NCBI RefSeq assembly: GCF_006345805.1
Contig: NC_043017.1
Span: 4,278,001 to 4,342,000, forward strand
DNA from: Octopus sinensis
Lineage: Eukaryota
Reading direction: 5' to 3'
DNA length: 64,000 nucleotides
Every line of letters begins with the position of its first letter. Position 1 is the first letter of the stretch. Shown here in pieces: positions 22,983 to 61,934 of the stretch. The translations under genes were made by a program, and so were the position numbers. The notes under the pieces were generated by a model, which saw only the letters and a program-made list of their open reading frames with translations, was not told where the DNA came from and made no database searches.

Positions 22983-24508
22983 CTCCTGGATTCCTTTGTG
23001 AACCCCAGGGTGGTAACTGCTGGCATAGATGTTCACATTTTGGCTTGATAGTGAATGGTACTTGCTAAATCCAGAAAGTTTTCCCTTTTTTTTAATCTTA
23101 AAACATGAGCAGTCCCAGATTTATAGGTGAGGGGGTGGCAGGAAACCACAGGAGTGATGTATACTGCTTCTCTCTGTTTTGAGAAAGAGAGAGAGAGAGA
23201 AAGAGAGTGAGCATCTGAAAACTGGGTCATAGATATTTGTCTCTCTTTAGCTCTGTTTCTGCTCTACTCACAGAGTGGATGGCTAGCTCTCATTCGAAAC
23301 CCATTGAGAAGTCCTAAGTAGAAAGAGTCAATGAAGCAATTACACAGTTTCACTTATTTAATAAGTCGGAGACACTTTTTTTTTTTATATTTAATTATTT
23401 TATTTCATTTAAAAATATTTTCATAATCTCATTTAGTTTGAATTAGAGGAGGAGTAGTAGGAGGAGGAGGCGGCTTAGAGCGGAGTGGAAGGGTGGTGTG
23501 TTTATAACATTCATGAATCAGAGGAGGGGGATGTAGTGAGAGTGGGGGAGGCTGGCATGGAAGGAGTGTTGAAAGTCTGTTCTTCCAGTGTCTGTTGGCT
23601 CCTCTTAACCTACATAGGTGTTTCTACATTTCTTTCTTTCTTTCTTTCCTACTGTTGCCAACTGAGAGGCCTGTCTACTACATGTGGTTGTTCAACTTGC
23701 TAGAAATATCAGCAAGTATCCCTTAAATCACACTCAACCAACATTAAAAAATAAGTAAAGGGAAGGACACATTGGAAGCTGTGGTCATATATTAATTACA
23801 CTCTCAGAATTATAGACAGGGTGGAATGCCTTTGATCACAGGTCTTCTATATGGGGATGGATATGGGGTTACCAACAACTTTTGTCATGTCCCCTGCCCC
23901 CAGCCATTATGCCATATCAAGGATGAACTTTTTTCCGTTTGTTTTTATTTTTAATAGTTTGGCCTAGAGTAGGGGTGGGAAAGGTTTTTATTACTGAGGG
24001 ACAAATTGCGAGAGCATAAAGAACTTGTGGGAACACATCTGTAATGTTAACGATAATGAACCTTTAATTTTTACAAATTACAACAAGCAATTATGCTTAG
24101 TCTTGCCTAGATTTAGTAATAACAGAAATACACACACACACACACACAAATTCATTATATTTTCAATATATTTCTTTAAAGGTTGCTGATAATCAGCAAT
24201 TGGTCTGGGAATGTTGATTCATTAAGAATTGATGTGTCCAGACAATTCAGAATATGGCTCAAGTTGAGTTTCATAAAAATGTGCAGAAAACAAAGCGAAT
24301 CTTTAATAGAATTTTACTGTTCCATTAAAAAAAAAAAAAATTCGTTCTGAGCAAAATGTTTTTTTGTCTCTCTCTAACATGAGTTGTATTGAATTACATA
24401 ATGACTGTGAATGAATTATTTTTCTTACGTCAGTGTCTTTCCCCAATGTCTATTGTAGCGCTTGAAATACAGTATTTTTACTTTTATTAAAAATAAAATT
24501 ACACAAAA

Positions 24509-32704: not shown

Positions 32705-34600
32705 CAGTAGTTTTATTTTTATTTTTATAGCGTGCTTTCACTTCACTACCGAGCGCAGCTCTGTGTGCCTTGGGTATGTGCTGTGATTTGTTGTGATGCT
32801 CTGATGGTTATTGTATGGAAAGTGCTCTGCGTAGGATGTGTGCAGTGCCTAGTAGTGCAATTTTCTGTATGTTATATGTGTTTGTAAGTCCTGGTTTTTT
32901 GTTATGTATTTGTCTGAATATTTTTTATCATGCCTAATGCACCTACTATGATAGGAATTGTTTCTGTTTTCAGATTCCACATTCTAGTTACCTCTATTTC
33001 CAGGTCTTTGTATTTTGAGAGTTTCTCCATTTCTTTTAGAGACACGTTGTCATCTGCCGGTACTGATACATCAATTAGAAACATTTTTTTTCTTCATGGT
33101 CTCTGACAACTATATCTGGTCTGTTGGCCTTAATTTCTCTATCTGTGTGTATCGGCATATCCCAGAGTATGGTTGCTTTCTCGTTTTCTGTGACCTTTTC
33201 TGGTGTGTGCCTATACCATCTTTTTTCTGTTGTTATTCCATAATGTTGGCATAGCTTCCAATGTATGTAAGTTCCAACTCTGTCATGTCTGTGAATATAT
33301 TCCTTCTTAGCCAGGACTGGGCAGCTAGAGATAATATGATTTATTGTTTCTTGTCCATCTCCACATATTCTGCAGTTACTTGTAATATTTCTTTTCATTA
33401 CATGTTTTTGGTAATTTCTGGTGGGGAGGCTTTGGTCTTGTGCTGCAATTAAAATCCCTCTGTTTCTGCTTTGAGTCCTGAGCTTCTCAACCATTGCTGG
33501 GATTTTTCTTTGTCTATTTCTTTTGCGTTTAGTTTAGTCCAGTATTTACCATGAAGGGGCTTTTCTTGCCATCGTTTTATCATGGTTCGTTGCTGTTCTA
33601 TTTTTAGTTTGGATTTCATTTTTTTATAGCTTTTGTTGTTTCTTCATCTTCTCTTCTTCTCTTCATGTTTATTAGGTGGTATGATTTCTTGTTTGTATTT
33701 GTCAGCTTCCTTAAATACTGAGAACAGTTTTTTGTTTTGCTCGTGTTTTGCCGCTATCATCATCATCATCATCGTCGTTTAACGTCCGTTCTCCATGCTA
33801 GCATGGGTGGACGGTTCGACGGGGTTCTGGGAAGCCAGAAGGCTGCACCAGGCTCCAGTCTAATTTGGATCAGCTATCTGGATCAGTTTTCCTTCCTTCT
33901 GAAGTAGATATTTTTGCAGTCCTATGGTGGTTATTTTATAGTAGTTTTCCAGCTGTATAAGGCCTCTACCACCTTCTATACGTTGTATATATAGTCTTTC
34001 TATGTCAGATTTTGGGTGGTGCATCCTAGATCCTGTCATTATTTTTCTTGTTTTTCTGTCTATTTTGGTCAGTTCATTTCGTGTCCAGTTAAGGATATTG
34101 TAGCTGTAACTTATAACTGGGACAGCTAAAGTGTTGATACCTATTATCTTGTTTTTAGCATTGAGCTCTGTGTTTAGTATTGATCTAACTCGTCTATAAT
34201 ATTCTTTTTTATTTTCTCTTTCATTTGTGTGTGTGTTGTGTCTTATCTAGTTCATGGATTTCTAAGTATTTGTAAGTTTGGCTTTGGTCTAATTCTTTTA
34301 TTTCATTGGTTTTATCTAGTGTGATGTTGCTACTCTTAACTAGTTTTCCTCATTTCATGGTTACTTTGGCGCATTTTTCTAATCCAAATTTCATATCTAT
34401 TTCTTTGGTAAATCCATGAACTGTCTTTAATAGTGTTTCCAGCTGTTTGTCATTTGCAGCGTATAGTTTTAGGTCATCCATATATAAAAGGTGGCTGATC
34501 GTTTTGCCGTAACATTTATATCCGCATCCAGTTCTATTTAGCATATCAGATAGAGGTGACAGTGCCAAGCAGAAAAGGAGTGGAGAGAGCGTATCTCCCT

Positions 34601-34601
<1 letters not shown>
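32705..34601 (-). mobile_element. 5'-truncated R4/Dong-like non-LTR retrotransposon (RT, CCHC, restriction-like endonuclease) in a (TAA)n tract
   Basis: QGDTLSPLLFCLAL, HLLYMDDLKLYA, CRICGDGQETINHIISSC, HRHDRV, KANRPDIVV and FLIDVSVP...EKLSKYKDL. (ATT)n on both flanks; a few frameshifts. Confidence 0.92.
33758..33862 (-). mobile_element. Family B copy inserted in the R4/Dong element
   Basis: B 3' end with (CAT)n; GCTATC repeated on both sides (probable TSD). Confidence 0.85.
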
Positions 34602-34637
<36 letters not shown>

Positions 34638-34736
34638 GCTGGTGTTTGAAGGAGTTTTGATTTGATGGAAGGATTTAAAATGGGAAGTTTTTATTGTAGA
34701 ACCAAGGGGGTAGGGTTGGTATAGAAAGGTCTAAGA

Positions 34737-49689: not shown

Positions 49690-49850
49690 CCCCTATAACT
49701 CTAACCCTAAAACCCCAACCCTAACCCTAAAACTTCAACTCTAACCCTAACCCTAAAACCTCAACTCTAACCCTAACCCTAAAACTTTAACCCTAACCCT
49801 GAAACTCTTACCCTAACTCTAAAACCCTAATCCTAAAACCTTAAAGCTAA
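49690..49850 (+). repeat. Interstitial degenerate (TAACCC)n telomere-like array inside an unclassified element
   Basis: CTAACCCTAACCCTAAAAC repeated with a period of about 26 nt. Confidence 0.8.
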
Positions 49851-51090: not shown

Positions 51091-51744
51091 AACACCCAAA
51101 GTGCCATGCTTACTTTTAGAACTTTTCCTTTGAATTATTTCAACTGCTTCACTCAAAATTTCCTTTCTGTCTTTTTCAGTTTTTATGCCTGAAAAATATA
51201 AGGACATTTTTACAGACATGCAAGAAAGTATTTGGTTTAAAGGATCAGGATTTGTTTGATCCGCCAGATCTGTTTGATGTGAAAGATTTTCGGAAGGTAG
51301 GTGAAAAAGATTTTTTCAAAAAAAAAAATTGTATGTGTGCATGCATGTACATGCACACACACACGCAGGTACACACACAGGCGAATGAAGAAACAAAAAA
51401 AAGTAGCACTCAAAAGAGTTTGTCGGAGTTACATGTGTTTCGTAACAGTTTGGCTCAACTTCAAACGAGTTGGAAGTTTCGTGAGTGTGTGGCTTGTCCA
51501 CATCATCAGATGTTCAAAGTCAGTGTGGAGAGAATTTAAAAGAAATCTAAAATGGCTCCTCGGTGAAAATATTTAGGTTTCCATTTGTCTCATGCTTGTT
51601 ATTACCATTACACATCTATTTCATCCCTGTAGAATGTTGGTGTAATTTGGGTTGGCTTAAGCTTACCAGACCATCATCCCTGTGGGGATGTGTACATTTT
51701 TTTAGGGTATCCAGATAAATTACCTGAGGTGGTCAATGACCTTA

Positions 51745-60990: not shown

Positions 60991-61396
60991 GGCGCAGGAG
61001 TGGCTGTGTGGTAAGTAGCTTGATTACCAACCACATGGTTCCGGGTTCAGTCCCACTGCGTGGCATCTTGGGCAAGTGTTTTCTGCTATAGCCCCGGGCT
61101 GACCAATGCCTTGTGAGTGGATTTGGTAGACGGAAACTGAAAGAAGCCTGTCGTATATATGTATATATATATATGTAAGTGTGTGTATATGTTTGTGTGT
61201 CTGTGTTTGTCCCCCTAGCATTGCTTGACAACCGATGCTGGTGTGTTTACGTCCCCATCATCTAGCGGTTCGGCAAAAGAGACTGATAGAATAAGTACTG
61301 GGCTTAGAAAGAATAAGTCCCAGGGTTGATTTGCTCGACTAAAGGCGGTGCTCCAGCATGGTCACAGTCAAATGACTGAAACAACTAAAAGAGTAA

Positions 61397-61399
<3 letters not shown>
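60991..61399 (+). mobile_element. SINE family A, full length
   Basis: Complete head-hinge-tail. Confidence 0.92.
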
Positions 61400-61434
<35 letters not shown>

Positions 61435-61478
61435 AAACAAGTCAAAAATAGAAAATGCTAAAATAATTTTATAGTGAA

Positions 61479-61526
61479 CATTTCAGTACCGGTTTCGGTC
61501 ATTTTGAGACCTTTTCAACTGTAACG
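61479..61526 (-). ncRNA. Type I hammerhead ribozyme, U3-A8 variant (minus-strand copy)
   Basis: Exact reverse complement of 61751-61798. Confidence 0.75.
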
Positions 61527-61750
61527 ATTAAATAATTAAATTTAGAAAAATTAGAAGAAAAGTTTTTTTAAAAGAATATTTCTATAGTAGTGTTCAGATT
61601 TAAGTGGCATTCTGCCTTTCTCTGACTCCCTTGTTTGCACTTGTGTGTCGGAGGTCGTTGTGAGTTCTTGGAAGGGTAGTAGAGGAAGAAGGCTGGTGGG
61701 GAAAGGGGGATGGGAGAATCTGGGAGTGCCCTGATGGTCGTATTTTGAAT

Positions 61751-61798
61751 CGTTACAGTTGAAAAGGTCTCAAAATGACCGAAACCGGTACTGAAATG
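61751..61798 (+). ncRNA. Type I hammerhead ribozyme, U3-A8 variant
   Basis: CGTT-A-CAG TTGAAAA GGTC TCAAAAT GACC GAAA CCGGT A CTG-A-AATG: stems I and II, palindromic ACCGGT stem III, GUA site; core C3-G8 pair replaced by U3-A8. Confidence 0.75.
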
Positions 61799-61880
61799 TT
61801 CACTATAAAATTATTTTAGCATTTTCTATTTTTGACTTGTTTTTTCATATATATCAACTCGTGTGTTCCTTTTCACCCTT

Positions 61881-61934
<54 letters not shown>

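What the first reader, a model, noticed from the sequence alone, without database searches (positions are those of the whole stretch)
61431..61846. Inverted pair of hammerheads with a compensatory U3-A8 catalytic-core change
Seen: 99-bp perfect inverted arms around a 218-bp spacer, set in (TA)n. Each arm holds CAG TTGAAAA GGTC-loop-GACC GAAA CCGGT A CTG, so the core reads UUGAAAA instead of CUGANGA. Established: positions 3 and 8 form a Watson-Crick tertiary pair in active HHRs, and U3-A8 is a tolerated natural variant; inverted partial LTRs are typical of Penelope insertions. Inference: a paired double change argues for selection on activity rather than decay, and a CUGANGA motif search would miss this family. 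Transcription from either strand would carry one ribozyme and could also fold into a 99-bp dsRNA stem.
Basis: partly seen in the sequence, partly recalled or inferred. Interest (0 to 1): 0.85.

Follow-up and report, generated by a model that had tools for sequence, protein, structure and literature searches.

The report
Penelope retrotransposon ends with variant hammerheads
This is a small head-to-head fragment of a young, abundant Penelope-type jumping gene whose end repeat carries a hammerhead ribozyme motif with a U-A pair where most have C-G, a known variant that likely still cuts RNA when two copies pair up.

Summary
In detail: 99-bp perfect arms (107 with shared TA), a 218-bp spacer, and a type I hammerhead with core UUGAAAA in each arm. 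The feature is an inverted, doubly 5'-truncated insertion of a young Penelope-like retrotransposon (RT, CX4CxxC linker, GIY-YIG; Neptune-type). The spacer is element sequence, and one arm alone carries the 34-nt tail. U3-A8 is the family state (1,788 of 1,803 matches; none C3-G8). The seven nearest outside relatives with a hammerhead all have C3-G8. All 22 distinct hammerheads found beside related RTs pair 3 with 8. So the double change is real and likely selected. It is not new in kind: U3-A8 in Penelope hammerheads, opposite-strand pairs and one-sided tails are all published. The inverted pair is likely an integration by-product: a transcript of this copy is predicted to bury its single ribozyme in the hairpin. 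Cleavage was not tested. Two leads remain. There is a borderline excess of copies whose 5' end is exactly the predicted cut site (6 of 16 junctions, p 0.04-0.09). A second, unrelated 362-bp tandem family in this genome also carries U3-A8.

The parts
61423..61750 (-). Longer 5'-truncated copy of the element's 3' pseudo-LTR region (left arm plus spacer), ending at the proximal 3' end, without tail
   Evidence: 99.1% identical over 331 nt to the 3' UTR/pLTR of the ORF-bearing copy L031; exact junction read from the sequence
61748..61888 (+). Shorter 5'-truncated copy (right arm plus tail), ending at the distal 3' end
   Evidence: 98.6% identical over 144 nt to the 3' end of L031
61756..61793 (+). 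Type I short-stem-III hammerhead motif: stem I CAG/CTG, core TTGAAAA (U3 61759, A8 61764), stem II GGTC/GACC, GAAA, palindrome CCGG, TA; predicted cut after 61790
   Evidence: weak Rfam HH9 match; dimer fold with a 6-bp intermolecular helix III
61484..61521 (-). Identical hammerhead motif in the left arm (U3 61518, A8 61513; predicted cut between 61487 and 61486)
61530..61747 (-). 218-bp 'spacer': pLTR/3' UTR sequence upstream of the hammerhead, present in the longer copy only
61748..61750 (.). Head-to-head junction of the two truncated copies, 3-bp microhomology AAT
   Evidence: sequence against L031; junction table
61855..61888 (+). 34-nt Penelope 'tail', on one arm only; in full-length copies it leads on to the ORF start
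61399..61430 (.). Left (TA)n target microsatellite, at the end of a dispersed repeat (likely a SINE)
61880..61931 (.). Right (TA)n target microsatellite; no target-site duplication can be told apart within it

Best explanation
The feature is two 5'-truncated 3' ends of a young Penelope-like (Neptune-type) retrotransposon joined head to head inside a (TA)n repeat, and each end carries the element's pseudo-LTR hammerhead with a U3-A8 core that likely still cleaves RNA as a dimer. Shown: the family identity, the RT/GIY-YIG link, the one-sided tail, U3-A8 in 99% of matches and its derived position among C3-G8 relatives. Inferred, integration: the element's protein cuts TA-rich DNA and primes two cDNAs on the two broken ends, one from the distal start (with tail) and one from the proximal start (without); both stop early and are joined through a 3-bp microhomology, which yields the inverted arms. 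Inferred, ribozyme: in full-length tandem transcripts two hammerheads 4.3 kb apart, or two RNAs held by the protein, would pair through the ACCGGU palindrome to form helix III and cut about 122 nt upstream of the ORF start, freeing element RNA from read-through transcript. U3-A8 would keep the 3-8 tertiary pair. In this particular inverted copy the ribozyme is predicted to be silent.
For: Family: 1,305 first-look candidates, 40 scored, 13 listed places at the top score with 100% identity over 315 nt, the window's own included. ORF upstream of the motif: RT PF00078 33.2 bits (cut-off 29.6), GIY-YIG 21.6 bits (cut-off 22.6); DKG, YLDD, CX4CxxC and YIG motifs. Full-length copy L274 has direct hammerheads 4,325 bp apart flanking the ORF, plus an inverted copy. 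Tail on exactly one arm in 10 of 11 head-to-head pairs among the first 30 listed loci. U3-A8 in 1,788 of 1,803; 9 non-U3, 6 U3 with non-A8, 0 C3-G8. With 3 and 8 left free, all 22 distinct sense hammerheads in 23 of 80 related loci pair 3-8 (18 C-G, 2 U-A, 1 A-U, 1 G-C), shuffles 0.1 per round; the family sits in a 100/100 clade with 7 C3-G8 relatives, and U3-A8 needs 3 origins on the tree. An older subfamily keeps U3-A8 and changes both sides of the first stem II pair, G-C to A-U. Literature: U3-A8 is natural and reported active in vitro (PMC3088659, passages); U3-A8 and opposite-strand pairs occur in Penelope elements, with weak dimer-dependent cleavage (PMC4209133); both strands are cut and extended and there are two RT start sites (PMC11167929).
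Against: No cleavage data for this motif. Stem I has only 3 contiguous pairs; in its own flanking sequence the monomer is predicted not to form stems I or II (pair probabilities 0.004 or less), so it would need a partner or protein. C-to-U and G-to-A are both AT-ward transitions in a window of mostly 29-43% G+C, so mutation bias could have helped fix the pair. In the anole element, ribozyme mutants did not impair insertion in vitro and no RNA ends were found at the cut site (PMC11167929). GIY-YIG is one bit under Pfam's cut-off. Neptune versus Nematis was not tested against reference sequences. The two-cDNA model competes with a self-priming model for inverted junctions (PMC3846280, passages); several units have both arms ending at nearly the same place, which fits self-priming or a shortened template too.
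Confidence: 0.85

Rival explanations
1. The element identity is right, but the U3-A8 hammerhead is a dead or dispensable relic: two AT-ward transitions became fixed in the master lineage and hitchhiked through the expansion.
For: Both changes are common transitions; hammerhead mutants did not block insertion of the anole element in vitro; Naiads proliferate without canonical hammerheads (PMC8557442, passages); uniformity among young copies shows only descent from one master.
Against: All other core positions are intact; U3-A8 persists in an older subfamily that changed both sides of a stem II pair; 22 of 22 distinct hammerheads beside related RTs pair 3-8, in four different ways; an unrelated tandem family has U3-A8 while position 7 varies.
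Confidence: 0.11
2. The inverted pair is itself the functional unit: a MITE-like element with terminal inverted repeats, or a bidirectional hairpin/ribozyme switch.
For: Perfect arms; 21 head-to-head pairs within 5 kb among the first 100 listed matches (counted by eye); a transcript of either strand is predicted to form the long hairpin.
Against: Arm lengths and junction points differ from unit to unit; the arms are 3' ends of an RT-encoding element; one arm only has the tail; the hairpin is predicted to abolish stem II of the ribozyme (probability 0.0); the arrangement is the published norm for Penelope insertions.
Confidence: 0.03
3. The inversion is an assembly artefact (fold-back read) at a repeat.
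For: Perfect arm identity beside microsatellites; some fetched copies show many small indels.
Against: The two arms end differently (tail on one only) by the same rule as in other units on other contigs, and the flanks are unrelated.
Confidence: 0.01

Closest known systems
U3-A8 minimal hammerheads of Schistosoma mansoni Cercyon Penelope-like elements (Cervera and de la Pena 2014, PMC4209133; parts 1-2 of 4 read)
   Same: Type I motif in the pLTR; U3-A8 instead of C3-G8 (about 1,300 hits there); dual motifs on opposite strands 100-700 bp apart; short palindromic helix III; dimer-dependent, low cleavage for the motifs they assayed.
   Different: Here the motif is nearly uniform (young family), has a 4-bp stem II without the bulged base, a 4-nt CCGG palindrome and a UA cut site. 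The text read does not say that a U3-A8 motif was among those assayed; supplements not seen.
Neptune (and Nematis) clade EN+ Penelope-like elements (Craig et al. 2021, PMC8557442; passages read)
   Same: RT followed by a CX2-5CxxC linker and C-terminal GIY-YIG with CCHH; (TA)n targets; partial tandems; an inverted 5'-truncated copy; a 30-40-bp tail often at one end only; hammerhead in the pLTR.
   Different: The nearest database proteins are only 57-60% identical; nearest relatives with a readable hammerhead have C3-G8. Clade assignment rests on motifs, not on a reference tree.
PAc (Poseidon) element of Anolis (Frangieh et al. 2024, PMC11167929; parts 1-2 of 4 read)
   Same: Two alternative 3' ends separated by the tail; AT-rich targets; ribozyme upstream of the RT start sites, so inserted copies keep the uncut motif.
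   Different: PAc has C3-G8 and its ORF starts inside the ribozyme; here the ATG lies 122-123 nt downstream of the cut site and the Zn-finger-like linker is present.
Metazoan non-LTR retrozymes (Cervera and de la Pena 2020, PMC7229834, passages; Li et al. 2026, bioRxiv 10.64898/2026.07.22.740005, part 1 of 5)
   Same: Type I dimer-type hammerhead.
   Different: The window family is not a short non-coding tandem repeat; the second U3-A8 family found here (362-bp tandems) does fit this kind.

Membership tests
Type I hammerhead ribozyme | Core U4 G5 A6, A9, G12 A13 A14, A15-U16 pair, H17 | tested here: met
   All present; H17 = A
Type I hammerhead ribozyme | Watson-Crick pair between positions 3 and 8 | tested here: met
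   U3-A8 in 1,788 of 1,803 matches; covariation across related elements, 22 of 22
Type I hammerhead ribozyme | Stems I and II, with support from changes on both sides | tested here: met
   Stem II 4 bp, first pair G-C in young and A-U in older copies; stem I 3 bp plus a 4-bp extension past an A-A mismatch, no compensatory change seen in stem I
Type I hammerhead ribozyme | Rfam gathering score | tested here: not met
   HH9 20.5 and 19.7 bits against 52; expected for a variant core and short stem III
Type I hammerhead ribozyme | Self-cleavage after H17 | not testable with these tools
   No raw RNA reads were listed; genomic 5'-junction proxy borderline
Short-stem-III (dimer-type) Penelope hammerhead | Very short palindromic stem III able to pair between two copies | tested here: met
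   ACCGGU self-pairs over 6 bp at -8.3 kcal/mol; the two-copy fold gives the double-hammerhead arrangement
EN+ Penelope-like element | Penelope-type RT with C-terminal GIY-YIG endonuclease | tested here: met
   PF00078 above cut-off; PF01541 E 2.7e-4, one bit under cut-off; motifs; many homologs annotated with both domains. Met by the family, not by the window copy, which has no ORF
EN+ Penelope-like element | Direct pseudo-LTRs with a hammerhead flanking the ORF | tested here: met
   L274: direct hammerheads 4,325 bp apart, the upstream one continuing into the ORF; L020 and L032
EN+ Penelope-like element | Inverted 5'-truncated copy and 30-40-bp tail at one end | tested here: met
   34-nt tail; 10 of 11 pairs with one tail; junction table
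Neptune clade | CX2-5CxxC linker between RT and EN; (TA)n targeting | tested here: met
   CX4CxxC at residue 614 of the L031 ORF; copies end in (TA)n. The linker is shared with Nematis
Neptune clade | Placement with reference Neptune RTs rather than Nematis in a phylogeny | not tested
   No named reference sequences were available from the tools
Non-LTR retrozyme | Short non-coding head-to-tail tandem repeat, one hammerhead per unit | tested here: not met
   The window family's full unit is about 4.3 kb and coding
MITE / TIR DNA transposon | Terminal inverted repeats of fixed length around a conserved interior | tested here: not met
   Arm lengths and junctions vary among units

The most novel reading that the evidence does not exclude
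The U3-A8 ribozyme cuts in the living animal and cut RNA is sometimes reverse-transcribed, leaving copies that start exactly at the cut site: a genomic record of Penelope hammerhead cleavage in vivo, which was sought and not found in the anole element. Two unrelated high-copy families of this genome (this retrotransposon and a 362-bp retrozyme) have both settled on U3-A8, which would point to a host-level preference for the variant core.
Probability: 0.25. Interest if true: 0.6.

Novelty: new member of a known kind. Interest (0 to 1): 0.3.

Why it matters
As it stands it adds a very young, high-copy family to the known U3-A8 Penelope hammerheads. It also gives clean comparative support that only the pairing of positions 3 and 8 is conserved: four pair types among 22 related ribozymes, and three origins of U-A. 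Standard CUGANGA descriptors and Rfam thresholds miss at least about 4,200 motif copies in this genome (1,803 + 1,055 + 1,407 pattern matches). What Penelope hammerheads do in vivo is still open in the papers read; a family with thousands of near-identical insertions lets that be tested by mapping 5' ends, if the borderline excess at the cut site holds up.

Tried and rejected
Rfam: only sub-threshold HH9 matches; the many miRNA hits are microsatellite noise. Expression: no RNA holder listed as such; all 24 runs are contigs. Four were laid on L031:6380-6785: contigs cannot show ends, and the RNA label is a guess, so this is not used as evidence. No other letter was listed at positions 3 or 8 there, but 4 rows were not shown and a missing row proves nothing. 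5' ends at the cut site: 6 junction events at the site (read) against 3 at -2, 2 at +1 (plus 2 small deletions), 3 at +3, 0 at -6 and 2 at a control TA upstream of stem I. Binomial p is 0.038 for 6 of 16; 0.090 if the junction with microhomology to a neighbouring repeat (L225) is dropped; 0.065 if the deletions count. The test was chosen after seeing the first result, so it is inconclusive. Wobble path for stem II (A-U, G-U, G-C): G-U rows lie among older copies in a tree of 74 flank sequences, but C11.1 is in a CpG, so decay explains them equally; not claimed. Two closest relatives (L121, L127) show only incomplete motifs by eye and, like the other 55 loci without a hit, are not in the tally. 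No coding role for arms or spacer (six-frame translation). No other copy of the element in the window. The second U3-A8 family has no DNA similarity to this element, so shared ancestry of the core is not supported. Earlier scan notes: none returned. Lunse et al. 2017 and Przybilski and Hammann 2007 are not held; they may list this family or give U3-A8 rates. Searches for a published description of this family returned none that describes it in the listings or passages seen: penelope+hammerhead+octopus, octopus+penelope+neptune+retrotransposon, hammerhead+retrozyme+octopus, U3-A8 terms. Repbase, Dfam and paper supplements were not available or not read.

Full report
Observation. The arms are perfect over 107 bp (61423-61529 and 61748-61854), or 99 bp if the shared TA repeat is left out, around 218 bp. 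TA arrays flank the unit. Each arm holds a type I hammerhead motif: stem I CAG/CTG, core TTGAAAA, a 4-bp stem II with a 7-nt loop, GAAA, the palindrome CCGG and a UA cut site. A scan of the whole window found these two motifs and one weak match in a GA repeat at 23179. Rfam gives only sub-threshold HH9 matches (20.5 and 19.7 bits, cut-off 52).

What it belongs to. The 315-nt minus-strand stretch had 1,305 first-look candidates in the genome; 40 were scored and 13 listed places, the window's own among them, are 100% identical over the full length. Fourteen longer stretches were fetched. Several carry, upstream of the motif, an ORF with reverse transcriptase and GIY-YIG endonuclease. The 748-residue open stretch in L031 has GLKF, DKG, GTAMG, YLDD, a CX4CxxC linker and YIG, and 479 database homologs, the best 57-60% identical. 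L274 is a full-length but frameshifted copy with two direct hammerheads 4,325 bp apart and an inverted copy in front. In L020 and L032 the pLTR runs on through the tail into an ATG 122-123 nt after the predicted cut site. This is an endonuclease-bearing Penelope-like element. The linker and the (TA)n targets point to Neptune; Nematis shares the linker (PMC8557442, passages) and was not excluded. The host is probably an octopus; that is recalled from the flanking repeat and inferred from the 2.7-Gb size, not shown by any search.

Anatomy of this insertion. The window unit is two 3' ends joined at their truncated 5' ends: a 328-nt minus-strand copy without tail and a 141-nt plus-strand copy with the 34-nt tail, overlapping by AAT (sequence). 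The 'spacer' is simply the part that the longer copy has and the shorter lacks. The arrangement is common: 21 head-to-head pairs within 5 kb among the first 100 listed matches (counted by eye). Of the 11 pairs among the first 30 loci, 10 have exactly one tail; the exception is a pLTR that continues into the ORF. Junction points vary widely among the 18 loci examined. Published accounts describe the same structure (PMC8557442; PMC3846280, passages). The anole element cuts and extends both DNA strands and starts reverse transcription at two sites that bound the tail (PMC11167929). I infer that two cDNAs primed on the two cut ends, one from each start, gave the two arms. Self-priming is the published alternative.

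Is U3-A8 the family state, and is it a paired change? With positions 3, 7 and 8 free, the motif matches 1,803 places (control 0). Nine have another base at 3, all with A8; six have U3 with another base at 8. That leaves 1,788 U3-A8 and no C3-G8. A looser pattern that excludes C at 11.1 matches 1,055 more places; 95 of the first 100 listed are U3-A8, none C3-G8 (counted by eye), and the commonest form has A-U as first pair of stem II. In a tree of 74 flank sequences without the ribozyme, the A-U rows lie in the older branch and most G-C rows in the young one. For outgroups, 80 related loci were fetched from metagenome contigs. A strict descriptor that leaves 3 and 8 free found 11 distinct sense motifs, all paired at 3-8, none antisense and none in shuffles. 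A relaxed one found 22 distinct sense motifs in 23 of the 80 loci: 18 C-G, 2 U-A, 1 A-U, 1 G-C, with 2 antisense C-G motifs and 0.1 per shuffle round. On an RT tree of these 23 loci plus the family, the family lies in a 100/100 clade with seven C3-G8 elements, five of which share the CCGG palindrome, and U3-A8 needs three origins (midpoint root only). So the change is paired, most simply derived from C3-G8, and repeated. That is good comparative evidence for selection on the pair. It does not show a rate of cleavage, and AT-biased mutation may favour this direction.

How the ribozyme would work. Stem III cannot form within one motif; two copies pair ACCGGU with ACCGGU (6 bp, -8.3 kcal/mol) and fold as a double hammerhead. 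This matches the dimer model, with low in vitro rates, for Penelope hammerheads (PMC4209133; review PMC6765202, passages). U3-A8 is reported as a natural covariation already shown active in vitro (PMC3088659, passages; the primary paper was not held). In its own flanks the monomer is predicted to misfold, in line with the protein-assisted cleavage seen for the anole ribozyme. Most insertions keep the whole motif and 56-98 nt beyond the cut site, so their templates were uncut at the 3' ribozyme. For the window copy, a transcript of either strand has one sense ribozyme and its exact complement; the predicted fold is the long hairpin, with stem II probability 0.0. The inverted pair is therefore likely inert as a ribozyme, though a possible source of double-stranded RNA if transcribed; transcription was not shown.

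Leads. Copies whose 5' end is exactly the predicted cut site number 6 events, against 0-3 at five control positions; p is 0.04-0.09 depending on counting. In one unit both arms start at that base (L226/L227). This is suggestive only. A second family, met by chance in L087, has 1,407 pattern matches, a 362-bp tandem unit with inverted arrangements and TA-repeat ends, U3-A8 in 20 of 20 loci read while position 7 varies, and no DNA similarity to the first element. It fits the non-LTR retrozyme description (PMC7229834, passages).

Comparison and verdict. U3-A8 in Penelope hammerheads and opposite-strand pairs 100-700 bp apart were reported in 2014 (PMC4209133). I found no paper describing this family, but Repbase, Dfam, supplements and Lunse et al. 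2017 were not seen. It works like, and meets the tested features of, an EN+ Penelope-like element with a dimer-type hammerhead; cleavage and the exact clade are untested. New member of a known kind; interest 0.3.

Noticed in passing
L203-L219 (e.g. G000:C1:169359384-169362750); first seen at L087:1140: Second, unrelated U3-A8 hammerhead family: 362-bp tandem repeats, 1,407 pattern matches, stem II GGGG/CCCC, palindrome CGCG, UC cut site, 6-bp stem I, head-to-head inversions and TA-repeat ends; likely a non-LTR retrozyme, not found in the papers searched.
   Followed up: partly
L220, L222/L223, L224, L225, L226/L227, L228 (position 1500 of each): Copies that begin exactly at the predicted cut site; L226/L227 has both arms starting there around a short foreign insert; L221 has a one-base insertion at the site.
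   Followed up: partly
L220, L222, L224, L228, L248, L251, L252: Seven of the nine junction events at or two bases before the cut site belong to a sub-lineage with a G-to-T change about 40 nt downstream, which makes up 8 of 27 classifiable first-listed copies; unexplained, noticed after the fact.
   Followed up: no
L156:1969, L190:117, L134:2216, L152:1869: Penelope-associated hammerheads in metagenome contigs with A3-U8, G3-C8 and U3-A8 cores.
   Followed up: partly
L056, minus strand, position 2118 of the reverse complement: A canonical C3-G8 hammerhead with a 6-nt palindrome in the same genome, so not all of its hammerheads use U3-A8.
   Followed up: no
L039:967-2662: Decayed copy of a more distant Penelope-like family, 48-51% identical in protein to the main family; no hammerhead found behind it.
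   Followed up: partly
L031:6040-6290: The element's 3' UTR holds a long (CAT)n/(CTT)n low-complexity tract whose length varies among copies.
   Followed up: no
window 60995-61391, with similar copies from 59821 and 62866: Dispersed repeat, likely a SINE, whose TA tail received the insertion.
   Followed up: no
window 33075-34730, minus strand: Fragments that read like a decayed non-LTR retrotransposon RT (YMDD motif); family named from recall only.
   Followed up: no
window 49696-49836: Short interstitial (TAACCC)n telomere-like tract.
   Followed up: no
window 51120-51300, plus strand: A short frame reading like part of a calponin-homology domain exon (resemblance recalled, not tested); if real, the insertion may lie in or near a host gene.
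   Followed up: no
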